The position numbers were made by a program, and so were the translations under genes. From Candidatus Melainabacteria bacterium (lineage in GTDB: Bacteria > Cyanobacteriota > Vampirovibrionia > LMEP-6097): DNA of 57,221 bases. Shown in pieces: positions 887-52,705 of this stretch (its first letter is position 1; each line of letters begins with the position of its first letter). The notes under the pieces are model-generated. The model was not told where the DNA came from and made no database searches. It worked only from the letters and a program-made list of their open reading frames with translations. The stretch lies in the NCBI GenBank assembly GCA_028817775.1, contig JAPPOW010000230.1, forward strand, positions 1 through 57,221, in the 5' to 3' direction.

Positions 887-1285
887 ATGATTCAAGGAAG
901 AAGAAGCTTGCAGCCTTTGAGCAAGCCTATTACTAGAGAGAGTCTCCGAAGCGACCCACAAACTGCGCGAGCAATGGACGAATCAGATCTCCGCTTGAAA
1001 GCCGGTGAGGGGAATCTTCGTATGGATGAAAATGGTGACTGGGTTGAAAACCGTGCTGATGATGGCACACCGGTACGTGTTCTCAAGCAGCGCTACGAAC
1101 AGAAAACAGGACCTCTCTCAGACCCTCCATTGATTGCTTACGTACCAAAAGCTTTAATCTTGGGGCTTGCATCAGTAGTTGGTCTTCCTTTGCTGGTGAA
1201 TGGCTGCGAGGAAGAAGCAGCTGAAACTACTGAACCCGTTAAGGCATTGCATCTAGCTGAAGCTACTACTGAACCTTCGAACTAA
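887..1285 (+). CDS. Hypothetical small protein with one predicted TM helix
   Basis: ORF only. Charged N-half, hydrophobic stretch ALILGLASVVGLPLLV, acidic tail. No family recognised. The 3' end overlaps the convergent 1266..2771 gene by 20 nt. Confidence 0.4.
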   Translation: MIQGRRSLQPLSKPITRESLRSDPQTARAMDESDLRLKAGEGNLRMDENGDWVENRADDGTPVRVLKQRYEQKTGPLSDPPLIAYVPKALILGLASVVGLPLLVNGCEEEAAETTEPVKALHLAEATTEPSN

Positions 1286-2771
1286 AGAAAGTTTTATTAG
1301 CTGCAGCAGAGTCATGAGTTTTGCAAATCATATCTAGGTATTTGCTAAGTTCTGAATTGACTTGGGGCTTCAAGTCTGGATTGCTTCGTCTGGACGGGGG
1401 CTCCCTGTCATCACCATGGATACTAAGTTTTGGCACCCCTGAATCCTCGCAATGACGGTAAGCTATATAGCGAGCGAGGATTTGCATTTGTTCTTTGGCA
1501 CTCAAAAGTAGTTGCTTACTAGCAACAGTGCGGTATTGCTCATAGACATATTTGAGAGTATTGATGACATCTCCCCGATTAGCGCGCTTCCAGCTTTGAT
1601 CTGATTCTAGATAGAGATCTTGACCAGGCTCAGTGGCAACTAAGAAATCAGCGTCATTGGCTTGATTGACGGAGTCAATTTTTTCAAAACTGAGATAGTT
1701 CCAAGGGATGGCAATATCTGGATGTAAGTGCCAGCCATTGCGTAGAACTTCGTGCATGCTATTACTACCATCATGTCTGCCACTGGCACTACTCTCAGTT
1801 GCCAAACCAGACCAAGAACCGCCCTCCAGATTTAATAATGCTTCAGGTACTGCATCGTAATCACCAAGTAGATTAAAGATCACTCTTACTGCTTGTCCTG
1901 GACTTGCCGTAAACTCAATAGTTTCTCTATTTTGAGGCTGATAATCCTGCTTATGAGCAATGCTATCAATTAATTTTTGGTCGATAGTTATTGATCCACC
2001 TTGGCTGATACTCTGGTAGTTAGTAGCTGCAGCTAGCACTATGACCCAGCGTTCGTCTATTTTGACTTTGTAAATTGGTGAGACTAGAGTATCAGTATAG
2101 TCTTCAACCAAGTTGACTTCTGAAACTAGTTCATTATTTTTGTTGACTTGATAAATCTTGCCCTTGTTAAAACTTGCAGGGCGTTGCTGGAATTTAATCA
2201 CATCCCAGCCACTAAATCTATTGCGTCGGGCAGCTTTGAATGCAGTCTCAGGCATTACGGCAATTGCTAGATTGTTTTTTTTGATACGGTGAGCTTTGAT
2301 ACAGTCACTAAACAAGCCAATATTGCAAAGTCCTTCAGTGAAATGAAAATGATCTACTGCCACATCTTTATACAAAGCCTGGTGTAAATACTTTGCTGCC
2401 ATTGCTTCGATATAGGCGATACTAAAGTCACCAAGAAACTTTTGCCCCGCAATAGCTTGGCTGAGCAAGAGCCCTGAAGGACTAGCTTTGCAGCCCTGTT
2501 GTAATTTGTAGTCCTGCTTGCTATCGCAAAGGAAACCAGCTTCAGCAATTTGATTATTAGTCAGTAAATTACCAAGTTTGAACTTAACAGCTTTACCCTG
2601 CACTAGGACTTCCTGCACCTTTGCAAGTAAAGTCCTAGTACCTGGAAAATTTAGATAGTCAAATTCATCTTCAACTTGAACTGTTGGAGATTTTGCAGGA
2701 GTTGAAGCATCGAACAGCGAAGCCTGCTGTAAAAATTCAATTTCTGAATTTTGTTTAGAATCTATGCTCAC
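1266..2771 (-). CDS. Unassigned 501-aa protein, last gene of the MNIO RiPP operon
   Basis: Long uninterrupted ORF with a GTG start 7 nt after the DUF2063 stop codon (TGA-aatcagg-GTG). No signal peptide or TM segment. No motif I can assign (contains HFHFTEG and GWHLHPD). Confidence 0.6.
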   Translation of the reverse strand: MSIDSKQNSEIEFLQQASLFDASTPAKSPTVQVEDEFDYLNFPGTRTLLAKVQEVLVQGKAVKFKLGNLLTNNQIAEAGFLCDSKQDYKLQQGCKASPSGLLLSQAIAGQKFLGDFSIAYIEAMAAKYLHQALYKDVAVDHFHFTEGLCNIGLFSDCIKAHRIKKNNLAIAVMPETAFKAARRNRFSGWDVIKFQQRPASFNKGKIYQVNKNNELVSEVNLVEDYTDTLVSPIYKVKIDERWVIVLAAATNYQSISQGGSITIDQKLIDSIAHKQDYQPQNRETIEFTASPGQAVRVIFNLLGDYDAVPEALLNLEGGSWSGLATESSASGRHDGSNSMHEVLRNGWHLHPDIAIPWNYLSFEKIDSVNQANDADFLVATEPGQDLYLESDQSWKRANRGDVINTLKYVYEQYRTVASKQLLLSAKEQMQILARYIAYRHCEDSGVPKLSIHGDDREPPSRRSNPDLKPQVNSELSKYLDMICKTHDSAAANKTFFSSKVQ

Positions 2772-2778
2772 CCTGATT

Positions 2779-3492
2779 TCAGTCTATCAGGATATTGGCC
2801 TCTTGCAAATCACCAATTAGCTTCTCTAGGGCCGAAAGCTCGATTTTTAGGCCAAAATGGGCACAAAAACTTTGATGAATTTCTTCTAATCCTTTGCCTG
2901 AGCCTATGGCCTCGATGACAAATAAGGTGGTATTGGACAGAACGAAGCTGCGGTTCTTGAGACTTTCATGATCACGATAGAAGAACACAATCTCGCTTTC
3001 TTCCTCAATATCAGTCTGGCGCAGACTTTCAATATCATCCTCTGTTGTTTTGAGATATTCAATGACTTGTGTTACAGGGTATGAGAACTTCTCAATTTTA
3101 TGAACCGGAGTTAATTTAGAACTTGCTGCTAGATCAGGACTATTGTGGATTAAAACCTCTGTCCACTCATAACGGGCTAGATCACTTAGGAAATTAGGAA
3201 AGTTCTCAGCAAGATCTTCTTCTGAAAGTAATTTATAGAAATCAGCAGCCAGTCTATTGTAGATTGCTGATTTGCTCGGGTAATTATTTTGATAGTGTCG
3301 CATCAAATCATCCCAATCTTCGCCAATAATCTTGCGGCTCAAGGGATAGATGTTCTGCATCAACGAACTAAGGCTACTGACTACCAGTGAGTAATAAACG
3401 CTCAGTTCGCTCTTGGTTTGTTCTGGCAGCTCAGTCGGCTGACCCAGCATAAATTTTTGAATCTCTTGTTGTAGTTGATAGACTTGGTTCAT
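2779..3492 (-). CDS. DUF2063-family partner protein of the MNIO enzyme (HvfC/BufC/MbnC-like role)
   Basis: N-terminal pattern LSVYYSLVVSSLSSLMQNIYPLSRKIIGEDWDDLMRHYQNNYPSKSAIYNRLAADFYKLL...LSDLARYEWTEV matches the DUF2063 signature (vYrnn..l..aL...yP....G..w..l...Y....PS...l...g..F..fL....dlA..Ew). Start taken at ATG 3492 (MNQVYQ), 5 nt after the MNIO stop. The ORF-track ATG at 3522 lies inside a family-A repeat. Confidence 0.75.
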   Translation of the reverse strand: MNQVYQLQQEIQKFMLGQPTELPEQTKSELSVYYSLVVSSLSSLMQNIYPLSRKIIGEDWDDLMRHYQNNYPSKSAIYNRLAADFYKLLSEEDLAENFPNFLSDLARYEWTEVLIHNSPDLAASSKLTPVHKIEKFSYPVTQVIEYLKTTEDDIESLRQTDIEEESEIVFFYRDHESLKNRSFVLSNTTLFVIEAIGSGKGLEEIHQSFCAHFGLKIELSALEKLIGDLQEANILID

Positions 3493-3497
3493 GATTT

Positions 3498-4409
3498 TTA
3501 TACCTGGATTGCCGCGTCGCATGCGCTCCTCGCAACGACGCCTTGTATTTGTTTTAATTCTTCGACTAATTCTTTAAGCTCAGGGAAATTAGAATCGCGC
3601 TCAAGCAAGATAGCATTGACTTCAGTTCTTGCAAGTAGTTGCCGCAAAATTTCATAAACTTCATCGATGATTCCTTCACCATGAGTATCTAGGATTTCAA
3701 TTTTGTGACCGGTGTGAGAGTGGTAACCATTGAGGTGACCAGCTATATGTACTTGCACAACCCGTTCTAGCATTAGTGAATCAAGAAACTCTACTGGCTG
3801 GTAATTGCCATGATTAGTGGCGTTGACATAGATATTATTGACGTCAAGCAACATACCACAATCTGCCTGCTCCAAAATTGAATTGATAAACTGAGCTTCA
3901 CTCATTTCTGCATCGATAATCGTTGAATAGAAACTTGGATTCTCAACTAAAAATGGAAGTTGGAATTCATCTTGTAAAAATTTAACGTTATCGGCAATGA
4001 TATCCACTGACTCCTGAATCATTGGCACTGGAATTAGGTTCTGTAAGTAGTATTCACCAACACGAGTGCAGGAAATATGGTCAGAGAACCAAGGTGCTTC
4101 GATTTGCTGGAATAGTTCTTTGCAGCCATCAATCAGGTAAGGATCAAAACAGGGCTTACCGGGAGTCTCGGGCGCTGTGCCTATACTAAGATTCACGCCA
4201 TGAGGAATCAATGCTACGCCACTATCAAGTACTTCTTGAAACTGCTGGGCTTTGCGTCCGCCTAAGTAGATATAGTTTTCTGGAACGATTTCTAACCATT
4301 CGATGAGACCGGTATTATTCTCACTGCTATAAAAATCTAAAGTTTCTTGAGTTAGAGCTCGGCGTAATCCTAATCCTAGACCTGCCTTGCTTAGTTTGTT
4401 TTTGTCCAT
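3498..4409 (-). CDS. DUF692 / MNIO (multinuclear non-heme iron oxidative) enzyme
   Basis: GLGLRR...IEWLEIVPENY...IPHGVNLSIG...WFSDHIS...LPFLVENPSFY...LLDVNNIYVNATNHG...VQVHIAGH is the TIM-barrel DUF692 pattern (MbnB/TglH/HvfB/BufB family). Start ATG 4409 has AGGA 8 nt upstream. The alternative ATG at 4418 sits inside a family-A repeat. Confidence 0.85.
   Translation of the reverse strand: MDKNKLSKAGLGLGLRRALTQETLDFYSSENNTGLIEWLEIVPENYIYLGGRKAQQFQEVLDSGVALIPHGVNLSIGTAPETPGKPCFDPYLIDGCKELFQQIEAPWFSDHISCTRVGEYYLQNLIPVPMIQESVDIIADNVKFLQDEFQLPFLVENPSFYSTIIDAEMSEAQFINSILEQADCGMLLDVNNIYVNATNHGNYQPVEFLDSLMLERVVQVHIAGHLNGYHSHTGHKIEILDTHGEGIIDEVYEILRQLLARTEVNAILLERDSNFPELKELVEELKQIQGVVARSACDAAIQV
3506..3539 (-). 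repeat. Family-A hairpin element, TTGC/GCAA stem variant (copy A10), forming the last ~12 codons of the MNIO gene
   Basis: Minus-strand read GTC-GTTGC-GAGGAGCGCATGCGACGCG-GCAAT-CC has the same architecture as the other family-A copies. It is translated as ...GVVARSACDAAIQ. Confidence 0.7.
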
Positions 4410-4413
4410 CACT

Positions 4414-4495
4414 GTCATCCTGAGCTGCGTAGCAGCGTCAGGATCCCATTATCGCACACAGGAGATCCTGACGTCACTTCGTTCCTCAGGATGAC
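4414..4495. repeat. Inverted dimer of family-A hairpin elements (A1 4414-4447 forward, A2 4461-4495 reverse)
   Basis: GTCATCCTGAGCTGCGTAGCAGCGTCAGGATCCC, a 13-nt spacer, then GGAGATCCTGACGTCACTTCGTTCCTCAGGATGAC. The same tail-to-tail dimer layout recurs at 52597-52693. Confidence 0.85.
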
Positions 4496-4497
4496 AT

Positions 4498-4524
4498 AAA
4501 AAAAGCCCCGGCAGAGCCAGGGCT
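4498..4524 (-). terminator. Intrinsic terminator/attenuator just downstream of the RiPP precursor gene
   Basis: Minus-strand read AGCCCTGGC-TCT-GCCGGGGCT followed by TTTTTTT. It lies between the precursor stop (4552) and the MNIO start. Confidence 0.65.
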
Positions 4525-4551
4525 TTATAATCAAATTAAGTAAGTCAATTA

Positions 4552-4809
4552 CTACTTAACGTGCTCTCCGCATTTGCCTTCGCCGCACTTGTGCTCACCA
4601 CATTCGTGTTCACCGCACTCATGCTCTCCGCATTTGCCTTCGCCACATTTGTGATCGCCACCACTAATAAGTAGTGAAGAAGAGCTAGTCTCACTAATAC
4701 TGAAAATTGTTTCAGCATTAACATCGATTTCTGGAGCAGTAATTGCACCAGCGTTTAATGCTGTAGCAAGGCCTAATGCTAATGCAGCAGCTTTAACTTT
4801 CTTTTTCAT
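4552..4809 (-). CDS. RiPP precursor: Sec signal peptide plus six (K/E)CGE(G/H) pentapeptide repeats (oxazolin/bufferin EGKCG-like class)
   Basis: ATG 4809 is preceded by AAGGAG. The 85-aa product is MKKKVKAAALALGLATALNAGA|ITAPE...SGGD-HKCGEGKCGEH-ECGEHECGE-HKCGEGKCGEH-VK. It sits immediately upstream of MNIO+DUF2063. The ORF-track start at 4866 adds an implausible CCC-containing extension. Confidence 0.85.
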   Translation of the reverse strand: MKKKVKAAALALGLATALNAGAITAPEIDVNAETIFSISETSSSSLLISGGDHKCGEGKCGEHECGEHECGEHKCGEGKCGEHVK

Positions 4810-4848
4810 CTGTTGTAATCTCCTTTGTTTGTCCGAACAACAGCAGAA

Positions 4849-4887
4849 ATTATATACTTTAATCAAGAAATGACACCTAATTTCTTG
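4849..4887. promoter_or_regulatory. Candidate promoter (-10 TATAAT on the minus strand at 4849-4854) overlapped by an 8-8-8 palindrome CAAGAAAT-N8-ATTTCTTG (4864-4887), in the divergent precursor/porin intergenic region
   Basis: Read directly. Position is appropriate for the precursor promoter and for an operator shared with the divergent gene at 4945. No experimental support. Confidence 0.3.
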
Positions 4888-4944
4888 GCATTAATTTGAC
4901 CAAGATAAAAGACAAGTCTTTTGCTATCGCAAGGGAATAAAACA

Positions 4945-6129
4945 GTGGTGGGCAAAAAGTTTTGTTTATTAATAGCTTTGCTTTGTTTGACTAGTCAAAC
5001 TGTAATGGCGATTCAATTTAAGGATGGAGATCTTGAAGCTGGCAAAGTCATTAATCTTTCTCAGCTTTTGGATAAATCAGAATTACATTTCGACACAATT
5101 TTTAGTAACGATTGGACCGGTGGCAGAGCGGGTGGCAACACCAACCCACATCGAGCATTTATTGATTATAGAGTCGAAGGACACTTGCCTCTCTATAATT
5201 TAGCTGGCAATCGAGGACGTTTGATCACTCGAGTACAAGGGCTGGGTTTCGTTGATGAGAATATAGATGATTTTGTTGAGGATCCCTTGCTTGATATTCC
5301 TGAATTGTTTTGGCAAAACGATAAACAACTTGGTGATAATGATTTGAGATTTGTCTTTGGTAAGTTTGCCAATAGAAGGTTCTTTAACAAGGATGAAATT
5401 AATCCTGATCCATTTGATATTGGGGAGATGCGTTTCTCTGGTGCTCTTGCTAATAGCTTAAATTTATTCAATTCAATCAATGAGTTCAGAGATTCTGATT
5501 TGCGCTTCTCTGGAAGTCGTCAAGCTAGTGGTTCTTATGGTTTCAATTTTGCAATCAAAAATCAAGCTGAGCAAGGTTTATTCAGCCGCTGGGGTTTCCA
5601 GCAAGCATTGGCTGTTAGTCAACTGGATGATTTCAAGTCTAACTTTTATGGAATTTCTGAACTTAATAAAGATTGGGGCAGGCAAAAACCAGGGCGCTTG
5701 AGTATGGGCTTGGTCTACGCTAATGATGCGGTATTTCGTTTGGCAAATAATGATGAGAATAGTTACTTGTTCTATTCTTCATTGGTACAAAAACTAACAG
5801 ATAGACTCAAGTTTTATTTCCGCTATGGTACTTTGTTTAGAAATTTAAATTCTGGTGCTAGTAACAATAATGAATATAGATTAGGTTTCTACTATAAGTG
5901 GACTGACAAAATTGCTACTCACAATTGGCTTGGTTACTTTGATAATGATGTAGCACTAGCTGAGGAGGATGAGCGCTTCCACTGGGTTAATGTGCTGACT
6001 TATAAATTCAATAAAAATTTCTTTGCTAATTTTGCTGCGGTCTTTAGGTTTAATCAAGGCAATTCAGCAGCTACTGGCGCTAGTGACAATAACTATACTC
6101 TGGCTACTCAGTTACGGGTCTTCATGTAA
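4945..6129 (+). CDS. Putative outer-membrane beta-barrel (porin-like) protein
   Basis: Signal peptide VGKKFCLLIALLCLTSQTVMA. Abundant alternating aromatic/polar segments (FYFRYGTLF, YRLGFYYKW, WVNVLTYKF). C-terminus YTLATQLRVFM resembles a beta-signal. Family (possibly OprB-like) not confirmed. Start is uncertain (TTG 4921, GTG 4945 or 4948). Confidence 0.5.
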   Translation: MVGKKFCLLIALLCLTSQTVMAIQFKDGDLEAGKVINLSQLLDKSELHFDTIFSNDWTGGRAGGNTNPHRAFIDYRVEGHLPLYNLAGNRGRLITRVQGLGFVDENIDDFVEDPLLDIPELFWQNDKQLGDNDLRFVFGKFANRRFFNKDEINPDPFDIGEMRFSGALANSLNLFNSINEFRDSDLRFSGSRQASGSYGFNFAIKNQAEQGLFSRWGFQQALAVSQLDDFKSNFYGISELNKDWGRQKPGRLSMGLVYANDAVFRLANNDENSYLFYSSLVQKLTDRLKFYFRYGTLFRNLNSGASNNNEYRLGFYYKWTDKIATHNWLGYFDNDVALAEEDERFHWVNVLTYKFNKNFFANFAAVFRFNQGNSAATGASDNNYTLATQLRVFM

Positions 6130-6137
6130 GAGTTAGG

Positions 6138-6178
6138 GAGGTCCTGACGTCACACCTTTGGTGTTCCTCAGGATGACA
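6138..6178 (-). repeat. Family-A hairpin element (A3) between the convergent porin-like gene and hisB
   Basis: Reverse read: GTCATCCTGAGGAACACCAAAGGTGTGACGTCAGGACCTCCC. Confidence 0.85.
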
Positions 6179-6183
6179 GGATT

Positions 6184-6771
6184 TTATATTATACCTTTGG
6201 TACTACGGATTTCATTAGCAATCCGAGCATCAACTGTCTTGGCTTTGTCAAAAGCCAATGCAAAAGCTTTGAAACTCGCTTCAATAATATGGTGTGAATT
6301 AGCGCCAGAGATTTTGTGGAAGTGAATCACCATACCGGTGTTGTTAACTAGTGCACGCCAGAACTCAATACAGAGCTCGGTCTCAAAAGTATTGATGCGC
6401 TCCTTATCAACTGGCACATCGTAAACCAAATAAGGTCTAGTACCAAGATCAATATCACAACTAACTAGTGCTTCGTCCATCACTACTCGGGCTGAAGCGT
6501 AGCGGCGGATACCCTTGCGTTCACCCAATGCTTCTTTGATAGCTTGTCCAATGACTATACCAGTATCTTCGACACTGTGATGGTCATCGATTTCATGATC
6601 GCCTTTGGTTTGGACACTTAAATCTATAAATGAATGCCTGCGGAATTGCTCAAGCATATGATCAAAAAATGGCACGCCAGTATTGATATCACCTTGGCCA
6701 GAGCCATCTAGGTTGATTTCAACAGAGACTGAGGTTTCTTTGCTGTCGCGGTTAATACTTGCTTTGCGCAT
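6184..6771 (-). CDS. hisB: Imidazoleglycerol-phosphate dehydratase
   Basis: RETKETxV-like start (RDSKETSVSVEINLDG), GVPFFDHMLEQ, DDHHSVEDTGIVIGQA, SGANSHHIIEASFKAFA: full-length IGPD pattern. Confidence 0.93.
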   Translation of the reverse strand: MRKASINRDSKETSVSVEINLDGSGQGDINTGVPFFDHMLEQFRRHSFIDLSVQTKGDHEIDDHHSVEDTGIVIGQAIKEALGERKGIRRYASARVVMDEALVSCDIDLGTRPYLVYDVPVDKERINTFETELCIEFWRALVNNTGMVIHFHKISGANSHHIIEASFKAFALAFDKAKTVDARIANEIRSTKGII

Positions 6772-6808
6772 AAGTTTATTATTCCCAGATGGAAAAGTAT
6801 AGCAATTT

Positions 6809-6841
6809 GGGGATCCTGACGCCTTACAGGCTCAGGATGAC
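6809..6841 (-). repeat. Family-A hairpin element (A4), short form
   Basis: Reverse read: GTCATCCTGAGCCTGTAAGGCGTCAGGATCCCC. Confidence 0.8.
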
Positions 6842-6846
6842 AAAGG

Positions 6847-8169
6847 CTACATTCCTAACATTTCTTCTATATACTGCAGTTCTTCTTCAGTATATCCAAG
6901 CAAGGCATCAATAATTTCATTGAGTTGTGAGTTTTTGTAATCAGTTTTGTTACGAACTTGTTTCTTGGCTTGTTCTAGCAAATCTTGAGTATCTAAGTAA
7001 AGTGCTTCTGCTTCTTCAAAATCAGCAAAGTCACCTTCATCAAGTTCTAGACCACCTTCACTAAAACGTTTGCAAGCAAGAACAATCTTTTGGTAAACAT
7101 CGACATCTTCATCGGTACCAATTTTCTTTTCTTTCTCGAAATAGCCAATGGCTTCATCCATATTGTTCTTGACTTTGACCCATGGATCATCCTCGAGTGA
7201 CTTAAGACTCTTGCGAACAATAAGCAAATAATCTGACTCTTGATCAGAGAGATTTAGTGCTTGTGAATTTTCCTTGGTGAGTTCTTCCTCTGGTTGAGCT
7301 GCCAAAGTTTCTACTGGAGCATCTTCTAGAGCTGGTGCTCCAGGGATTGGCTCCGCTTCGTGTTCTTCAACTTTGTGCTCGCTATGACTTTCTTCAGCAG
7401 CATGTTCTTCTTCAGCAACTGGCTTGAATTTCTCTTCTTCTAGTTCAACTACTGGTGCCTTGCCACCACCAAGAACTTGGTTGAGAAAGACAGTTACTTC
7501 ATCAGTAGTTTTGTGTTCTGTATGTTCAGCTTCCTCTGTGTGACTTGTTTCTTCATGATGAGTACTAATTTCATGTCCATGGGCTTCATGACTGGTGTGA
7601 ACTGTAGAACTCGTCACAGTTTCAGTGTGGATAGAACTTGCCCCATGAGCGGTATGAGTTTGTACTGGAGGCTGAGAAACTTTGTGCTCAGTTTTGACTT
7701 GAACTTGTGGCTCGCGTTTGTGCACTATTGGAGCAGGTGCTGGATGTACTGGCTCTGGCTTATGAACTTCTTCGTGCCTCGGTTCTTCTTTCTTGGGATG
7801 AGTTTCCAGGACTCGTGGTGCCCGGTCCTGATGATGAGCCTGTGCATGGTGAGTTGTTTCATGAGCTTCAGGAGCGTGATGATGTTCTTCTACCACTGCT
7901 GCTGGTGGTGTATCATGCACAGTCTCAGTTTTATGTTCTATTGATTCTGGAACAAGTACTGGCGCTGCTTCTACCGGAGCTTGCACTGCTTCTTGTGGAA
8001 TAAAAGGCTGCTTAGTCACTGGGGCAGCTTTGCGTTGCTGGTAGTTTGCATGACGAGCGCGGGCTCGCTGCAGTAATTCTTGCAATCTGGCGTTATCCTC
8101 ACCAAGAGCACTAACGCTAGCCGGAAACGCGAGCAAAGAAATTAGAGCTAAGCTGATCTTTTTGGACAT
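6847..8169 (-). CDS. Secreted His/Glu/Pro-rich low-complexity protein with an acidic helical C-terminal domain
   Basis: Signal peptide MSKKISLALISLLAFPASVSA. Long tracts such as HHHAPEAHETTHHAQAHHQDR and HTSHEAHGHEISTHHEETSHTEEAEHTEHK. No family recognised. Two plus-strand ORFs in the same interval are compositional mirrors. Confidence 0.6.
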   Translation of the reverse strand: MSKKISLALISLLAFPASVSALGEDNARLQELLQRARARHANYQQRKAAPVTKQPFIPQEAVQAPVEAAPVLVPESIEHKTETVHDTPPAAVVEEHHHAPEAHETTHHAQAHHQDRAPRVLETHPKKEEPRHEEVHKPEPVHPAPAPIVHKREPQVQVKTEHKVSQPPVQTHTAHGASSIHTETVTSSTVHTSHEAHGHEISTHHEETSHTEEAEHTEHKTTDEVTVFLNQVLGGGKAPVVELEEEKFKPVAEEEHAAEESHSEHKVEEHEAEPIPGAPALEDAPVETLAAQPEEELTKENSQALNLSDQESDYLLIVRKSLKSLEDDPWVKVKNNMDEAIGYFEKEKKIGTDEDVDVYQKIVLACKRFSEGGLELDEGDFADFEEAEALYLDTQDLLEQAKKQVRNKTDYKNSQLNEIIDALLGYTEEELQYIEEMLGM

Positions 8170-22824: not shown

Positions 22825-23355
22825 TTACCTTCTACGAAGAAAACTTGAAGAACCGAGTGAGCCACCACGACGGTTACCTGTTGCACTATTAGAACCTAGA
22901 CCACTATTACGTCTGCTGGCACCAAAGAAGCTTCTTGAGCCAAGTGCACCATTGCGTCCACCTCTTCTGGCACTAGTTGAACCTAAACTGCCATTGCGTC
23001 CGCCTCTTCTTGCGCTACTTGAACCCAAGCCAGCATTGCGTCTTGAAAGTCCAGAGGAGCCAAGACTATTACGGCTATCATTACGATGAGTTAAGTTGGT
23101 GAGACTGTTACGAGTGTCGTTGCGATGAGTCAGGGTGGTGAGACTATTGCGTGTATCGTTGCGGTGTGTGAGTGTAGTTAAACTGTTACGAGTATCATTT
23201 TTAGATCTGATTCTACTGAGATTATTGCGCAATGCGCCTGCTCTATTGGAGAGACTTGATCTGCGAGAGCCAGAAGCGTAGCTATTACGGCTGCGTCCAC
23301 GACTACTAGAGCCGATGCCTTCATTATTGCTTCCACGTATTCCTCTTGCGACCAT
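22825..23355 (-). CDS. Arg/Ser/Gly/Asn-rich repetitive (RGG-like) hypothetical protein
   Basis: 176-aa ORF with NDTRNSLTTLTHR x3 and GSLGSTSARRGGRNG x2. No clear SD. The mirror plus-strand ORF is also open, so coding status is uncertain. Confidence 0.4.
   Translation of the reverse strand: MVARGIRGSNNEGIGSSSRGRSRNSYASGSRRSSLSNRAGALRNNLSRIRSKNDTRNSLTTLTHRNDTRNSLTTLTHRNDTRNSLTNLTHRNDSRNSLGSSGLSRRNAGLGSSSARRGGRNGSLGSTSARRGGRNGALGSRSFFGASRRNSGLGSNSATGNRRGGSLGSSSFLRRR
22949..23195. repeat. Two adjacent imperfect tandem-repeat arrays (42 bp x2-3 at 22949-23050; 39 bp x3 at 23079-23195) inside the RGG-like ORF
   Basis: Read directly. Units CCATTGCGTCC(A/G)CCTCTTCT... and CGTTGCG(A/G)TG(A/T)GT...GAGACT(A/G)TT(G/A)CG(T/A)GT(A/G)T. 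Confidence 0.75.
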
Positions 23356-23537: not shown

Positions 23538-23978
23538 ATGAACCCCAAATTTGCCCCAAAAGTCATGGCTTATTTACTCATTTTGCGCTGGACTTTATCG
23601 CTTATTTTCTTTGTTATGGGGGCACCAAAACTCTTCGATGCTAATTTTGGGGCAAGTGCAGATATTTACTTCGCTAGTTTGCGTGACGATATCATTCTTT
23701 CGCCTTATACCGGCTTCTTTAATAAGGTAGTGATTCCTAATGCTTTCATCTTTGCAAGTTTAGTGAAGTATGCAGAGCTTGCAATCGCTGGAGCCTTTTT
23801 TATTGGATTCCCTATGCGCTTAGCTGTTTTTGCAGCGACTTTCTTGCATATCAATTATATTTGCATTGCTAGTTTCCCGAGCTTACTTTATTTGAATGTT
23901 CTAATGATAGTTTGTGAATGGGTTTGCCTTGCTGCAGTGGAAGCGTCAGTGAATAATACTACTCCAGTTGCCAAATGA
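23538..23978 (+). CDS. DoxX-like small integral membrane protein
   Basis: Four hydrophobic segments. LRWTLSLIFFVMGAPKL and YAELAIAGAFFIGFPMRLA resemble the DoxX pattern. The stop overlaps the next gene's ATG (ATGA). Confidence 0.4.
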   Translation: MNPKFAPKVMAYLLILRWTLSLIFFVMGAPKLFDANFGASADIYFASLRDDIILSPYTGFFNKVVIPNAFIFASLVKYAELAIAGAFFIGFPMRLAVFAATFLHINYICIASFPSLLYLNVLMIVCEWVCLAAVEASVNNTTPVAK

Positions 23979-25696
23979 GGTTCTTTAGTCTTTTAGTCTT
24001 GCTCTGTGCATTGAGTGCTTGCTCAAGCCCCAAGCTAGATGCTTCGAAACCTGGTGGGGTATTGCGTCGTACCCATCTTGGTTCTGATCCCAAAACTTTA
24101 AACCCTTGGATTTCTGCTGATGCTGCAAGTTCAAGGTTTGCTTCTCTGCTTTATTTAGGTTTGGTGAGAACTGATCCAGATACTGATGAAGTAATGCCTT
24201 ATATGGCTGAGAGCTTTGAGCTTCGCAAGGGTGGTAAGTTGATTTTGGTCAAAATGCGTGAAGATCTAGAGTGGACTGATGGTGAACCAATTGATGCAGA
24301 AGATGTTGAGTATACCTGGAATACTTTGATCCGGGATGAAGTTGCACAAAGTTCGACCAAGGATATTCTTACTGTTGATGGTGAGTTTCCGCAAGTAACT
24401 TTGCTTGATAAATTTAATTTGCGTTTTGAAACCAAAGAAGTTTTTGCGCCGTTTTTGCGGAGTTTGAGTACTGCAATTGCACCAAAGCATGATGTAGAGC
24501 GCTTCTTAACAGAGAGTGGAGCCAAGACTCTGGAGGAGAAACAAAAAGCCTTCAATTCATATTTGAGTATCCAAACTAAGCCAGATGAGATTGTTAGTTC
24601 AGGACCATTTAAGCTCGATAAAATTATTCGTGGTGAGCGGATTGAAGTCAAACGCAATCCTAAGTTCTTTATTTTTGATGAGCAAGGACAGCGTCTACCT
24701 TATCTCGACAAGATAGTTTATTCCTATGTGCGTGATAGTACCGCCGATACTTTTAAGTTTCTAGCTGACGAAGCTTATATTCTAAGTGTCACTGCTCAAA
24801 ACAGTGCTTTGATTAAAACTCTAGAAGAGAAATATGATTTCTCTTTGCATGATGCTGGTCCCACTACTGGTACTAACTTTATTTGGTTCAATATGAGCAA
24901 GCATGTGCCTGAACCAAAATATTCTTGGTTTAATGATGAAAATTTCCGTAAGGCAATTTCTTATGCTATTGACCGGGAGAATATCGTTAACAACGTCTTT
25001 CAAGGTCTAGGAGCGCCTTTGTTCACTGCTGAATCTCTCAAGTCCCCATTTTTAAATGAAGAACTTGCTGATGGTCACCCGCGTGATATGGCTAAAGCCA
25101 AAAAATTATTAGAGGCTTCTGGTTTTAGTTTTCATACTAATAAAGATAGTGATGAACTTGAGTTGCATGATAAGCATGGCAACCGAGTTGAATTTAATTT
25201 ATTCACCAATGCTGGTAATCAAGAACGAGAATTTATTTCAGTTATCGTTATTAGCAATTTGCGTGAGCTTGGTATGAAAGTAAATTTCAAACTCTTGGAG
25301 TTTAATAATTTTGTTTCTCGTTTGATGTCGGGTAAGGATTATGAAGCTGGCATTATTGGGCTGACCGGTGGCAATGAACCAAATAGCGGCGCAAATGTTT
25401 GGCGCAGCGACGGGCGCTTGCATATGTTTGATGTTAAAGCCGGACAAGAGGGAGCTGTCACTCGTGATTGGGAGCGAGAACTCGATTCTTTATTTAGTAA
25501 GGCTGTGCAGACTATGGATTTTAAGGAGCGTAAGGTCTTCTATGATAGATTTCAGGAGATAATTTATGAGCACAATCCGATGATTTATATCGCCTCTCCA
25601 AAGCAATTAAGTGCTATCAAGCATAAGATTGCTGGTATCCGAAAGACCAAATATGGCGGTATGATGCCATATTTATATAAAGTGTATATCAAATAA
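23975..25696 (+). CDS. ABC transporter substrate-binding lipoprotein, family 5 (OppA/DppA-like)
   Basis: Lipobox LLCALSAC|S. Size and pattern (LDPW..., LVRTDPDT.EV.P.MAES, W.DGEP..A.DV.YTW) typical of SBP_bac_5. Confidence 0.8.
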   Translation: MRFFSLLVLLCALSACSSPKLDASKPGGVLRRTHLGSDPKTLNPWISADAASSRFASLLYLGLVRTDPDTDEVMPYMAESFELRKGGKLILVKMREDLEWTDGEPIDAEDVEYTWNTLIRDEVAQSSTKDILTVDGEFPQVTLLDKFNLRFETKEVFAPFLRSLSTAIAPKHDVERFLTESGAKTLEEKQKAFNSYLSIQTKPDEIVSSGPFKLDKIIRGERIEVKRNPKFFIFDEQGQRLPYLDKIVYSYVRDSTADTFKFLADEAYILSVTAQNSALIKTLEEKYDFSLHDAGPTTGTNFIWFNMSKHVPEPKYSWFNDENFRKAISYAIDRENIVNNVFQGLGAPLFTAESLKSPFLNEELADGHPRDMAKAKKLLEASGFSFHTNKDSDELELHDKHGNRVEFNLFTNAGNQEREFISVIVISNLRELGMKVNFKLLEFNNFVSRLMSGKDYEAGIIGLTGGNEPNSGANVWRSDGRLHMFDVKAGQEGAVTRDWERELDSLFSKAVQTMDFKERKVFYDRFQEIIYEHNPMIYIASPKQLSAIKHKIAGIRKTKYGGMMPYLYKVYIK

Positions 25697-25729
25697 CAAG
25701 GTAATATCACCTAAATGTGCTAAAATGTA

Positions 25730-26497
25730 TTGACGAATATGGTCTTAGGATTCAACTTCAGTGCTGGCGAAGCAGTACGAAGCGCGGTTGATGCATTTCG
25801 TAATGAGGCCCTGGCAAAAATACCCGGATATAGTTCGATGGCTACTCTCTACCGTCGGGTTAAAGCACGGCAGGGTATGGAAGGACCTAAACATGCTGGC
25901 AATACTGTAGATGAGAGTGAGTTTAATAGTGCTAGAAGAAAAATTGAATCGGAGATTGGGGGTAGCCTCAATCCATTTAAGTGGATGTGGAATGCAGTGC
26001 AAACTGTCATTGGTAATACCAAGAGTGAGCGTATTGCAACAGCAGTTAGGAATTTTGAATCTTATTCGCACCAGTATGAGGCTTATAAATTTGCACACAA
26101 GGCACAAAAATTCTTACTGACGGAATTAGAACGGCGGGTCAGCAATATTGAAAGCTATGGATCTAAATTTGTTGGTACCAAGAATAAACATGTTGCCAGT
26201 GATCCGGTGCTTAGTTCACTCAAATCAGCAATTAAATCTTGGCTGGAACCGTTCAATCGAATTGCCCATGGTGAAGTGAAGGAGGTTGGCAAGCTCACTG
26301 AGTCTGATCTCAAGTTCTTGATGAATATTCGCGATCGAATTCGTTATAGCTCCAAAGCTAGATACCTAGAGGATTTGTTGCCTGAATATGAAACTACAAT
26401 TCAAGCAGCAAGACAATCAGTTTATAGTACTAAACCAGCTCTTAATCAAGGACAACGCCAAGTTGGGGAGCACTTAGCTAAACAAATGGGGGTCTAA
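25730..26497 (+). CDS. Hypothetical protein
   Basis: ORF only. Start uncertain (TTG 25730 or ATG 25739). Helical, no signal peptide. Confidence 0.45.
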   Translation: MTNMVLGFNFSAGEAVRSAVDAFRNEALAKIPGYSSMATLYRRVKARQGMEGPKHAGNTVDESEFNSARRKIESEIGGSLNPFKWMWNAVQTVIGNTKSERIATAVRNFESYSHQYEAYKFAHKAQKFLLTELERRVSNIESYGSKFVGTKNKHVASDPVLSSLKSAIKSWLEPFNRIAHGEVKEVGKLTESDLKFLMNIRDRIRYSSKARYLEDLLPEYETTIQAARQSVYSTKPALNQGQRQVGEHLAKQMGV

Positions 26498-49435: not shown

Positions 49436-49855
49436 TAAATATAGCACTTCCCCTTATCTTAGAGCATGGTTTAAATAATTCTTGCTTATCTTTAGTTTTG
49501 TAATTCAGCTGAGACATATAGTTGCTCTATTAGAAAAGTTTCTCCGAATATCAGACAAATTGCTTCCCATTCGGCGCAGCTGCTATCACAAAGTTATTGT
49601 TGTTTTGCTTTGCAAAACGAAAAGGCAACGTGAATCCGATATGAGAAGCAATTGTCTGAATTCTCCAAAACTTTTCTTAGACCCCAGCAGATTCTCTTTT
49701 CGCGAGTCTCAAGAAGCGGGCACAAAACAATTTCTCGGAGAAAACATTTGCAGGAAAATCAATACTAGCAAGATCGAAGATCTTGCCCATTTTCCGAAAC
49801 CGTTTTTCCGAAAATTCGTTTTGTGCTAAGCTTCGGACTGTTTCGCGATATGGTC

Positions 49856-49892
49856 GGAAGATCCTGACGTCGCAAAGCTCCTCAGGATGACC
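49856..49892 (-). repeat. Family-A hairpin element (A7)
   Basis: Reverse read: GGTCATCCTGAGGAGCTTTGCGACGTCAGGATCTTCC. Confidence 0.85.
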
Positions 49893-49981
49893 ATCAAAAT
49901 AAGCAAGAATTATCTAGGTTTTTAGCTGAAAACTAGATTTAATTAAAGCTTTATATAATTCGTCAAGACAAGCAAGCTAGA

Positions 49982-52531: not shown

Positions 52532-52596
52532 AGTAACTATATAAAGTTTGGCTGGAGCGCCATTGATTGCAAATTACTTAATCGGTTCTTAACGTT

Positions 52597-52693
52597 GTCA
52601 TCCTGAGGAACGCCGTAGGCGTGACGTCAGGACCCCATTGTTACCAAGCTGATTGGGGAGATCCTGACGTCGCCTGCTGCTCCTCAGGATGAC
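52597..52693. repeat. Inverted dimer of family-A hairpin elements (A8 52597-52636 forward, A9 52655-52693 reverse)
   Basis: GTCATCCTGAGGAACGCCGTAGGCGTGACGTCAGGACCCC, an 18-nt spacer, then GGGGAGATCCTGACGTCGCCTGCTGCTCCTCAGGATGAC. Confidence 0.88.
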
Positions 52694-52705
52694 AGCCATG
52701 CTAAA

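What the first reader, a model, noticed from the sequence alone, without database searches (positions are those of the whole stretch)
1266..4809. MNIO (DUF692) + DUF2063 RiPP operon of the oxazolin/bufferin class with unexplained extras
Four co-directional minus-strand genes lie close together:
- An 85-aa precursor with a Sec-type signal peptide and a Cys-repeat core.
- A DUF692/MNIO enzyme.
- A DUF2063 partner, starting 5 nt after the MNIO stop.
- An unassigned 501-aa protein, starting 7 nt after the DUF2063 stop.

From memory of the field, MNIO+DUF2063 pairs acting on Sec-exported Cys-repeat precursors define two known groups: the copper-binding oxazolin system (HvfABC of Haemophilus influenzae, EGKCG repeats) and the bufferins (BufABC). 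The enzyme class is therefore known.

Three things are not accounted for by that knowledge:
- The His-containing CGEH linkers.
- The absence of the DoxX-type gene that I recall often accompanying such operons. The only DoxX-like gene in the window is 19 kb away, at 23538.
- The fourth gene.

This is the best candidate for a new variant of a metal-handling RiPP system in the window.
Basis: partly seen in the sequence, partly recalled or inferred. Interest (0 to 1): 0.85.

Follow-up and report, generated by a model that had tools for sequence, protein, structure and literature searches.

The report
Captophorin copper-peptide operon plus orphan gene
This is a recognisable member of a known, widespread family of bacterial operons that make a secreted copper-binding peptide; here it sits in a non-photosynthetic relative of cyanobacteria and is followed by a fourth gene of unknown function found only in that small lineage.

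Summary
Four co-directional minus-strand genes encode:
- an 85-aa secreted precursor with six Cys at 5-residue spacing
- an MNIO (PF05114, E 9e-78)
- a DUF2063/PME1 partner
- a 501-aa protein with no family match

The first three form an HvfABC/FonABC-type "captophorin" cluster of the Lys-Cys family. This is a known kind, and its modification has since been revised to 5-thiooxazole.

- **No DoxX.** About 32% of MNIO-PME1 clusters lack DoxX, including the characterised fonABC.
- **His next to Cys.** (D/E)HKCG repeats occur in other precursors of the family.

The fourth gene is the real unknown. It is an orphan: 23 representatives among 1.84 billion proteins, with no Pfam, PDB or fold match. It occurs only in MAGs mostly labelled Melainabacteria/Caenarcanales. 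It follows HvfC on the same strand, 4–59 nt away, in 16 distinct loci. It also survives intact in three lineages that lack MNIO and HvfC at the locus, two of which keep a deletion scar. It is therefore probably co-transcribed but not dependent on the local maturase genes.

Verdict: a new lineage-specific variant of a known system, of moderate interest.

The parts
4849..4876 (-). Sigma-70-like promoter of the precursor gene (GTGTCA, 16 nt, TATAAT; the -10 box is at 4854..4849)
   Evidence: Consensus scan, 10 of 12 matches. A TATAAT-like box lies at the same relative position upstream of the precursor in most relatives. This is a pattern match only.
4829..4840 (-). Dyad TTGTTCGGACAA between the -10 box and the Shine-Dalgarno sequence (AAGGAG, 4825..4820). 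It is a candidate operator or 5'-UTR hairpin.
   Evidence: Similar dyads sit at the same place in relatives: TGTTCGAACA (L007), TGTTC-N5-GAACA (L005), TTGTTT-N4/5-AAACAA (L001, L009). The regulator is unknown; this is inference.
4552..4809 (-). Precursor peptide (85 aa): Sec-type signal peptide, conserved FSISE..LLIS segment, six-Cys core C-G-E-(G/H)-(K/E)
   Evidence: ORF and translation. NF050137 scores 22.4 bits against a cut-off of 19.5. Orthologues are present in 12 related loci.
4502..4526 (-). Intrinsic terminator directly after the precursor gene (11-bp stem, 7 G-C pairs, T-run)
   Evidence: Scan and fold. A stem plus T-run is present at the same position in 8 loci, with different stem sequences.
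4413..4496 (-). 84-nt palindromic dispersed-repeat element inserted between the terminator and the MNIO start. Its 3' arm covers the ATG at 4418.
   Evidence: The fold of 4400..4560 gives -71.8 kcal/mol, z -9.1. Further copies lie at 52590-52700, 6090-6185 and 49800-49900. L005 has it at the same site; L001, L007, L009, L010, L013 and L014 do not. The only Rfam match is a sub-threshold chance hit to a miRNA hairpin.
3498..4409 (-). MNIO (multinuclear non-haem iron oxidative enzyme), HvfB/FonB-like; an alternative start lies at 4418
   Evidence: PF05114 E 8.6e-78. HvfB model 237 bits and BufB model 222 bits, both below their equivalog cut-offs. 3BWW E 2e-48. The conserved motifs HG, SDH, LDVNN, HIAGH, DTHG, LLERD and LRR are all present, and the site equivalent to FonB Phe250 is Ser.
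2779..3492 (-). HvfC/PME1 partner protein (DUF2063 N-domain)
   Evidence: PF09836 scores 40.7 bits against a cut-off of 27.2. NF050145 E 4.4e-19, below its equivalog cut-off. A clade profile hits PDB 3DEE (N. gonorrhoeae PME1) at E 0.0017.
1266..2771 (-). 501-aa orphan protein ('g501'): no signal peptide or membrane segment seen by eye (no predictor run), no known domain, co-directional and 7 nt after HvfC
   Evidence: 17 homologues among 5.8 billion clusters. 23 among 1.84 billion representatives by exhaustive profile search. AF2 model pLDDT 77, pTM 0.80. No PDB fold match at E<0.001. It follows HvfC in 16 distinct loci.

Best explanation
This is a captophorin (HvfABC/FonABC-type, Lys-Cys family) RiPP operon in a genome of the Melainabacteria/Caenarcanales lineage.

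**Proposed mechanism.**

1. The precursor gene has its own promoter and a strong terminator. Its mRNA is therefore probably made in excess. Terminator read-through or an internal promoter then gives the MNIO-HvfC-g501 message.
2. In the cytoplasm, HvfC (PME1) presents the precursor to the multi-iron MNIO. The MNIO uses O2 to convert each of the six Cys of the C-G-E-(G/H)-(K/E) pentads into a 5-thiooxazole. The expected mass change is -4 Da per Cys, -24 Da in total.
3. The Sec signal peptide then takes the modified peptide to the periplasm. There the thiooxazoles, probably helped by the five neighbouring His and the many Glu, bind copper.

**The fourth gene.** The 501-aa gene is a clade-restricted orphan that is probably co-transcribed with the maturase genes. 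It is most likely not needed for thiooxazole formation, and it is not dependent on the local maturase genes.

**Shown versus inferred.**
- Shown here: gene identities, motif conservation, synteny and the loss patterns.
- Inferred from characterised homologues: the modification, export and copper binding.
For: **Family matches for the three core genes.**
- HMM scans.
- Solved-structure matches: 3BWW for the MNIO and 3DEE for the partner.

**MNIO motifs.** The MNIO keeps every conserved motif it shares with FonB, HvfB and NgoB. This includes the Asp aligned with FonB's proposed catalytic base and the substrate-gating LRR (roles from PMC13097082).

**Precursor.** It passes NCBI's HvfA-family domain cut-off.

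**Sufficiency of the MNIO/PME1 pair.** FonBC alone reconstitutes 5-thiooxazole installation in vitro. The products of the H. influenzae hvf and N. gonorrhoeae ngo clusters carry the same modification, and fontiphorin and gonophorin were shown to bind Cu (PMC13097082).

**Terminator.** A terminator after the precursor is conserved in 8 loci, with varying stem sequences.

**g501 is linked to HvfC.**
- It follows HvfC on the same strand, with a gap of 4-59 nt, in 16 distinct loci.
- Insertions in relatives fall on either side of the four-gene block, never between HvfC and g501.

**g501 is not dependent on MNIO/HvfC.**
- L003/L004 keep a Cys-less version of the peptide and g501 but lack MNIO and HvfC.
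- L011 keeps only g501.
- L016/L017 have g501 at another locus.
- In L003 and L011 the last codons of HvfC (ATATTGTTACAATAG / ATACTGTTAATATAG) remain as a deletion scar upstream of g501.
- All 48 invariant residues of the family are retained in these proteins.
Against: **Nothing about the chemistry, export or metal binding was measured.**
- The MNIO and the partner score below NCBI's equivalog cut-offs for HvfB, BufB and HvfC.
- The clade's MNIOs carry Ser where Lys-Cys-family MNIOs have Phe (FonB F250), a site that tunes substrate selectivity.
- Two repeats are EHECG rather than KCG. Whether all six Cys are modified is therefore uncertain.

**Expression may be affected.** An 84-nt palindromic repeat sits between the terminator and the MNIO start. 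It may reduce MNIO expression in this particular genome.

**g501 could still be a pathway component.**
- Its tight and widespread linkage to HvfC is also what a true pathway component would show.
- The genomes that lack the local MNIO/HvfC could encode another pair elsewhere; this could not be checked.
Confidence: 0.7

Rival explanations
1. The 501-aa protein is a true fourth component of a Melainabacteria-specific captophorin pathway. It would act in the cytoplasm on or with the precursor, for example as an additional tailoring enzyme, or as an escort that holds the signal-peptide-bearing precursor until the MNIO has finished.
For: - It lies immediately downstream of HvfC in 16 distinct loci spanning 30-79% identity, with gaps of 4-59 nt.
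- The block precursor-MNIO-HvfC-g501 stays together where the flanks change: L020 and L024 upstream; L005, L007, L014, L020 and L023 downstream.
- The family occurs nowhere else in 1.84 billion representative proteins.
- It has many invariant polar residues: E122, D140, H141, S290, R296, E310, E316, S319, E326, N337, K395 and H486. These suggest an enzyme.
- The literature notes that how premature Sec export is avoided is unknown (PMC12452194).
Against: - It is retained intact where MNIO and HvfC have been deleted (L003/L004, L011), and at an unrelated locus in L016/L017.
- L011 has no precursor either.
- The whole neighbourhood (creatininase-like gene, orf440, hisB ... rsmI, rpsR, rpmB) is syntenic in this clade. 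Functionally unrelated genes there are equally tightly spaced.
- In characterised systems the MNIO/PME1 pair suffices.
- There is no similarity to MNIO or HvfC or to any known fold.
Confidence: 0.3
2. The His- and Glu-rich repeats change the metal specificity. The mature peptide would handle Ni, Zn or Cu(II), by mixed thiooxazole/imidazole/carboxylate coordination, rather than acting as a Cu(I) sink. This rival concerns the metal only and could hold together with the main explanation or with the g501 rival.
For: - There are five His in a 34-residue core, with one His two residues before five of the six Cys.
- His at that position is conserved across the clade as (D/E)HKCG.
- The Cys-less descendant in L003 keeps a His/Asp-rich tail, which suggests that metal binding by His/acidic residues is itself selected.
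- The metal specificity of 5-thiooxazole peptides is stated to be incompletely assessed (PMC13097082).
Against: - Every characterised member binds copper, and the clusters respond to copper, gold or oxidative stress.
- No metal-specific regulator or transporter lies in the operon.
- No measurement was made here.
Confidence: 0.25
3. In this particular genome the operon is impaired. The palindromic repeat inserted between the precursor terminator and the MNIO start has displaced the internal promoter and buries the start region in a hairpin. The precursor would then be made but poorly modified.
For: - Relatives without the insertion have a TGnTAnnAT-like box right after the terminator. In the window that position reads TTTATGTCAT and runs into the repeat.
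- The predicted hairpin is very stable and reaches to the ATG at 4418.
Against: - All four ORFs are intact, and the MNIO keeps every invariant residue of the clade.
- L005 carries the same insertion with intact genes, so the arrangement has been tolerated over considerable divergence.
- Terminator read-through could still supply the message.
Confidence: 0.1

Closest known systems
Captophorins of the Lys-Cys / EGKCG group: oxazolin (HvfABC, Haemophilus influenzae), fontiphorin (FonABC, Fontimonas thermophila), gonophorin (NgoABC)
   Same: - The gene order is the same: precursor, MNIO, DUF2063/PME1.
- The precursor has a Sec-type signal peptide and tandem 5-residue Cys repeats containing KCGEGKCG.
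- The MNIO shares the conserved motifs, the aligned catalytic Asp and the LRR gate.
- Like fonABC, the cluster has no DoxX gene.
   Different: - His replaces Gly two residues before five of the six Cys, and two repeats have Glu instead of Lys (EHECG).
- The MNIO has Ser at the FonB-Phe250 selectivity site, as do all 13 clade members examined.
- Scores fall below the HvfA, HvfB and HvfC equivalog cut-offs.
- The host lineage is labelled Melainabacteria/Caenarcanales. That lineage is absent from the published RefSeq survey, which lists only Cyanophyceae within Cyanobacteriota.
- An orphan 501-aa gene follows HvfC.
Bufferins (BufABC, DUF2282 or Buf2 precursors)
   Same: - The MNIO is of the same large sequence cluster: the BufB model gives 222 bits.
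- It has a PME1 partner and a Sec-exported precursor.
- The modification is thiooxazole, with a role in copper stress (PMC12452194).
   Different: - The precursor is not DUF2282 or Buf2; it is a repeat peptide.
- The score is below the BufB equivalog cut-off.
- No sigma/anti-sigma or DoxX genes lie at the locus.
Methanobactin system (MbnABC)
   Same: An MNIO enzyme modifies Cys of a ribosomal peptide to give a copper ligand.
   Different: - The match is distant: MbnB model E 8e-12, PDB 7DZ9 E 1.6e-8.
- The partner type differs, and methanobactin has a leader peptide instead of a Sec signal.
- The chemistry is oxazolone/thioamide, and the function is copper acquisition.

Membership tests
Captophorin / MNIO-PME1 RiPP cluster (HvfABC-FonABC type) | MNIO enzyme (PF05114) with the conserved motifs thought to hold the metal ligands, and the catalytic Asp | tested here: met
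   PF05114 scores 261.7 bits against a cut-off of 25. 3BWW E 2e-48 over 280 residues. HG, SDH, LDVNN, HIAGH, DTHG and LLERD are all conserved in an alignment with FonB, HvfB and NgoB. Individual ligand residues were not mapped one by one.
Captophorin / MNIO-PME1 RiPP cluster (HvfABC-FonABC type) | PME1 partner with a DUF2063 domain, encoded next to the MNIO | tested here: met
   PF09836 scores 40.7 bits against a cut-off of 27.2. NF050145 E 4.4e-19. The start lies 5 nt after the MNIO stop. A clade profile hits 3DEE at E 0.0017. The C-terminal RRE-like part was not tested separately.
Captophorin / MNIO-PME1 RiPP cluster (HvfABC-FonABC type) | Cys-rich precursor with Lys-Cys 5-mer repeats, encoded just upstream | tested here: met
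   NF050137 (KCGExKCG_twice) scores 22.4 bits against a cut-off of 19.5. There are six Cys at 5-residue spacing.
Captophorin / MNIO-PME1 RiPP cluster (HvfABC-FonABC type) | Sec signal peptide on the precursor instead of a classical leader | tested here: inconclusive
   The sequence shows a typical n/h/c pattern, MKKKVK-AAALALGLATAL-NAGA. It is conserved in orthologues. No signal-peptide predictor was available.
Captophorin / MNIO-PME1 RiPP cluster (HvfABC-FonABC type) | Product carries 5-thiooxazoles (-4 Da per Cys, about 305 nm absorbance) and binds copper | not testable with these tools
   This needs co-expression, MS, NMR and metal titration.
HvfA / HvfB / HvfC equivalogs in NCBI's sense (same function as the H. 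influenzae proteins) | Score at or above the curated equivalog cut-off | tested here: not met
   HvfA NF050188 scores 30.7 against 95. HvfB NF003818 scores 237 against 360. HvfC NF050145 scores 69 against 142. BufB NF050167 scores 222 against 310. The proteins are family members, not equivalogs.
Canonical four-gene oxazolin/gonophorin operon with DoxX (HvfX/NgoX) | DoxX gene in the cluster | tested here: not met
   There is no DoxX within the operon. The only one lies at 23538..23978, overlapping the start of a family-5 solute-binding protein gene. DoxX is optional for the wider family: 67.8% of clusters have it.
GH57-type glycoside hydrolase fold (best structural hit for the 501-aa protein) | Significant fold similarity | tested here: not met
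   The best Foldseek hit is 4CMR at E 0.05, TM 0.29. No hit reaches E<0.001. A profile search against PDB sequences found nothing at E<=10.

The most novel reading that the evidence does not exclude
The orphan 501-aa protein is a new kind of cytoplasmic partner of MNIO-PME1 maturases. It would be either a tailoring enzyme with a new fold or the missing factor that holds Sec-targeted precursors back until they are modified. This would define a four-component captophorin pathway specific to Melainabacteria. The His-substituted repeats would give the product a metal preference different from that of the known copper sinks.
Probability: 0.25. Interest if true: 0.7.

Novelty: new variant of a known kind. 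Interest (0 to 1): 0.4.

Why it matters
**What it adds.**
- Captophorins are among the most widespread RiPP pathways and are tied to copper stress and virulence. This locus extends them to a lineage labelled as the non-photosynthetic sister group of cyanobacteria.
- It shows a clade-wide change at an MNIO residue known to tune substrate choice (Phe to Ser). That change goes together with His/Glu-substituted repeats.

**Natural experiments in the relatives.**
- One lineage has lost the maturase pair and converted the precursor into a Cys-free His/Asp-rich secreted peptide.
- Other lineages have lost everything except the orphan gene.

**What is at stake.**
- If the orphan gene turns out to act on the peptide, it would be a new component of a pathway thought to need only two enzymes.
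- If not, the locus is simply one more member of a known family.

Tried and rejected
**Assigning the 501-aa protein.** All of these found nothing usable.
- Pfam, NCBIfam, PADLOC and PHROGs scans.
- A profile search against PDB sequences.
- An AF2 model searched with Foldseek against PDB and BFVD. The best hit was only a weak GH57 match, TM 0.29. The viral search was not a sensible use of a job.
- An exhaustive profile search of 1.84 billion representatives, which returned only family members and fragments.
- Pfam scans of the longer family members in search of fusions.
- Profile-profile comparison with the clade's MNIO and HvfC alignments; both gave probability 0.1%.

**Ideas considered and rejected.**
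- The hairpin between the precursor and the MNIO is a riboswitch or other regulatory RNA. It is a dispersed repeat with other copies in the window, and Rfam gives only a chance miRNA match.
- The porin-like gene next to the precursor belongs to the system. It is adjacent only in the window and its closest relative.
- The distant DoxX is the operon's missing fourth gene. It overlaps a solute-binding protein gene in a separately conserved cluster.

- Checking the complete genomes of the lineages that lack MNIO/HvfC.
- Searching AlphaFold DB.
- Running a multimer prediction.

Full report

Yes. The ORF list shows four co-directional minus-strand genes at the stated coordinates.

The 85-aa product of 4552..4809 begins MKKKVKAAALALGLATALNAGA. 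By eye this is a typical Sec signal peptide; no predictor was run. It ends in DHKCGEGKCGEHECGEHECGEHKCGEGKCGEHVK, which has six Cys at exact five-residue spacing and five His.

The HMM scans settle the identities.
- The precursor passes NCBI's HvfA-family domain model NF050137 (22.4 bits, cut-off 19.5).
- The 3498..4409/4418 product is an MNIO (PF05114, E 8.6e-78).
- The 2779..3492 product has the DUF2063 domain of the PME1/HvfC partners (PF09836, 40.7 bits against 27.2; NF050145, E 4e-19).

The 501-aa ORF starts at a GTG 7 nt after the partner's stop. It matches nothing in Pfam, NCBIfam, PADLOC or PHROGs. The DoxX-like gene at 23538 is also real.

**2. What the three core genes are**

They form a cluster of the kind first described as oxazolin (HvfABC) and bufferin (BufABC). 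These are now grouped as captophorins, Cu-associated peptidic thiooxazole metallophores. That work also revised the oxazolin modification from oxazolone/thioamide to 5-thiooxazole (PMC13097082).

The MNIO aligns over 280 residues with the solved Histophilus somni protein 3BWW (E 2e-48). Aligned with FonB, HvfB and NgoB, it keeps the HG, SDH, LDVNN, HIAGH, DTHG and LLERD motifs. It also keeps the Asp aligned with FonB's proposed catalytic base and the LRR pair that gates the substrate's Glu (roles).

One difference is consistent across all 13 MNIOs of this clade. The residue after the catalytic Asp is Ser (ERDS). It is Phe in Lys-Cys-family MNIOs and Asp in Cys-Lys-family MNIOs. FonB experiments showed that this site governs tolerance for the residues around the modified Cys. 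This fits the clade's unusual repeats.

The scores are below NCBI's equivalog cut-offs for HvfA, HvfB, HvfC and BufB. The proteins are therefore family members, not equivalogs.

**3.

*DoxX.* DoxX accompanies only 67.8% of MNIO-PME1 clusters. Oxazolin-type clusters occur with the core genes "in various combinations". No DoxX is listed for the reconstituted fonABC cluster. Its absence here is ordinary. The window's DoxX overlaps the start of a family-5 solute-binding protein gene and belongs to a separately conserved cluster.

*His-containing linkers.*
- Every orthologous precursor in the clade carries (D/E)HKCG repeats.
- The same EHKCGEGKCG or DHKCGEGKCG unit occurs in precursors with quite different N-termini, including one whose N-terminus looks lipoprotein-like (P0083, P0087-P0090).
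- His beside the Cys is thus a recurrent, uncharacterised variation inside the family.
- The EHECG units, with Glu instead of Lys, were found only in the window and in the precursors of its closest relative (P0080 and L014/L015).

*The fourth gene.* This is the real unknown (section 4).

**4. The 501-aa gene (g501)**

*A rare orphan.*
- A word-indexed search of 5.8 billion protein clusters found 17 homologues.
- An exhaustive profile search of 1.84 billion representatives found 23, all full-length members or fragments, with no link to another family.
- The AF2 model is reasonably confident (pLDDT 77, pTM 0.80): an alpha/beta core followed by long C-terminal helices.
- No PDB structure matches at E<0.001. 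The best are GH57 enzymes at TM 0.29.
- It is unrelated to MNIO or HvfC by profile-profile comparison.
- No signal peptide or membrane segment is apparent by eye.
- It has 48 invariant positions, many of them polar (E122, D140-H141, S290, R296, E310, E316-G-G-S319-W, E326, N337, K395, H486). This looks like an enzyme but assigns no activity.

*Host lineage.* The genomes carrying it are MAGs labelled Candidatus Melainabacteria, Candidatus Caenarcanales, Cyanobacteriota or "Cyanobacteria bacterium". Three automated assemblies are labelled "uncultured Gammaproteobacteria" instead. No marker from the window itself was tested, so the placement rests on these labels and on shared synteny.

*Context.* I recovered 19 distinct loci.
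- In 16 of them g501 follows HvfC on the same strand, with 4-59 nt between them. These are the window, L014, L005, L007, L001, L009, L021, L010, L012, L013, L018, L020, L022, L023, L024 and L025.
- The flanks change while the block stays together.
  - L020 and L024 have different upstream genes.
  - L005, L007, L014, L020, L023 and the window have different genes inserted between g501 and rsmI.
  - The window and L014 have a porin-like gene inserted between hisB and the precursor.
  - No insertion separates HvfC from g501.
- This argues for co-transcription and perhaps a shared role.

*Three lineages argue the other way.*
- L003/L004 (two samples) have hisB, then a 75-aa peptide with a homologous signal peptide but a Cys-free tail (DDEDGEHYNHDDDEQNNHDDDDEV). 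A terminator follows, then g501. MNIO and HvfC are absent.
- L011 has hisB followed directly by g501.
- L016/L017 have g501 after a DoxX, SBP_bac_5, 254-aa trio. This is the same trio found at 23538-26497 in the window.
- Upstream of g501, L003 and L011 still carry what look like the last codons of HvfC (ATATTGTTACAATAG and ATACTGTTAATATAG). Compare ATACTGTTACAATAG at the end of HvfC in L023. These states therefore arose by deletion of the maturase genes, with retention of g501.
- The proteins in these loci keep all the invariant residues.

*Caveat on the linkage evidence.* The surrounding genes (creatininase-like gene, a His-rich secreted protein, hisB ... rsmI, rpsR, rpmB, aroC) are also syntenic and tightly packed across the clade, although functionally unrelated. 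Adjacency alone is therefore weak evidence here.

*My reading.* g501 is probably co-transcribed with the maturases. It does not depend on the local maturase genes, and it is probably not needed for thiooxazole formation, for which FonBC alone suffices in vitro. I put about 0.3 on a true pathway role.

**5. Operon anatomy**
- The precursor has a sigma-70-like promoter (TATAAT at 4854..4849) and a strong Shine-Dalgarno sequence.
- A dyad, TTGTTCGGACAA, lies between them. Related dyads occur at the same place in L001, L005, L007 and L009. It may be an operator.
- A strong intrinsic terminator (4526..4502) follows the precursor gene. A stem plus T-run occurs at that position in 8 loci with different stem sequences, which indicates selection for the structure.
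- Most relatives then show a TGnTAnnAT-like box before the MNIO gene, possibly an internal promoter (inference).
- In the window and in L005, an 84-nt palindromic element sits there instead. It is a dispersed repeat with further copies at 52590-52700, 6090-6185 and 49800-49900.
- In several relatives a short GGGCC-type hairpin without a T-run lies just upstream of g501, including in the Hvf-less loci L003 and L011.

**6. Mechanism**

Inferred from characterised homologues:
1. HvfC binds the precursor. The conserved FSISE..LLIS segment between the signal peptide and the core is a candidate recognition site (my inference).
2. The MNIO oxidises each Cys to a 5-thiooxazole.
3. Sec exports the product.
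4. The periplasmic peptide binds copper.

The neighbouring His and Glu could add ligands and shift metal preference. This is untested.

**7. Novelty and verdict**

The enzyme class, the precursor class and the DoxX-less architecture are all known. Four things are new:
- the host lineage, which is absent from the published RefSeq survey (that survey lists only Cyanophyceae within Cyanobacteriota)
- the clade-wide ERDS variant together with the His/Glu-substituted repeats
- a conserved orphan gene downstream
- natural loss series among the relatives

I rate it a new variant of a known kind, with interest 0.4.

Noticed in passing
L003 7622-7849 (also L004 1156-1383): This is an orthologue of the precursor with a homologous signal peptide but no Cys. 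Its tail is His/Asp-rich (DDEDGEHYNHDDDEQNNHDDDDEV). The locus has lost MNIO and HvfC, so a RiPP precursor appears to have turned into an unmodified acidic/His peptide.
   Followed up: partly
window 4921-6129 (+): A 402-aa protein with a signal peptide is transcribed divergently from the precursor. The AF2 model (pLDDT 82) is a porin-type beta-barrel: Foldseek against OmpF/OprB gives E about 1e-11, TM 0.56-0.62. Its family has 43 proteins and no Pfam domain. It lies next to the precursor only in the window and its closest relative (L014/L015).
   Followed up: yes
window 4413-4496, 52590-52700, 6090-6185, 49800-49900, 6760-6850: A dispersed palindromic repeat (GTCATCCTGAGGAAC...GTGACGTCAGGATC...CTCAGGATGAC) is present in full or partial copies at several intergenic sites. 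It looks MITE- or REP-like. One copy sits between the precursor terminator and the MNIO start, and L005 has it at the same site.
   Followed up: partly
window 6847-8169 (-): A 440-aa protein with an apparent signal peptide has a long His/Glu/Pro-rich low-complexity middle (for example HHHAPEAHETTHHAQAHHQD). It is syntenic in almost all related loci and tightly coupled to hisB (imidazoleglycerol-phosphate dehydratase). It has no Pfam match and may be another metal-binding envelope protein.
   Followed up: no
window 23538-26497 (+) and L016 5035-9575: A DoxX gene overlaps the start of a family-5 solute-binding protein gene, and a 255-aa unknown gene follows. In the most divergent relative (L016/L017) the 501-aa family gene sits directly after this same trio. 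This gives a second, indirect association between that family and a DoxX gene.
   Followed up: partly
window 4829-4840 (-) and the equivalent sites in L001, L005, L007, L009: A conserved dyad (TTGTTCGGACAA; TGTTCGAACA; TGTTC-N5-GAACA; TTGTTT-N4/5-AAACAA) lies between the -10 box and the ribosome-binding site of the precursor gene. It is a candidate operator for an unknown repressor.
   Followed up: no
L001 7942-8000, L009, L012/L013, L020, L025, L003, L011 (just upstream of the 501-aa gene): A short GC-rich hairpin of the GGGCC(N)GGCCC type, without a T-run, precedes the 501-aa gene in several relatives. These include two that lack MNIO and HvfC. It is absent from the window, where the gap is only 7 nt.
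   Followed up: no
L024 4360-7590: MNIO, HvfC and the 501-aa gene are present, but RNase HII lies directly upstream. No xCG-repeat ORF was found in the 13.6-kb locus, so the precursor is elsewhere or lost.
   Followed up: partly
window 22825-23355 (-): A 176-aa ORF encodes an Arg/Ser/Asn/Gly-rich low-complexity repeat protein (repeats of ...THRNDTRNSLTTL...). It has no Pfam match.
   Followed up: no
window 887-1285 (+): A 132-aa ORF with one hydrophobic segment overlaps the 3' end of the 501-aa gene by 20 nt in convergent orientation. It has no counterpart in any related locus, and the local G+C is slightly raised (0.47). It may not be a real gene.
   Followed up: no
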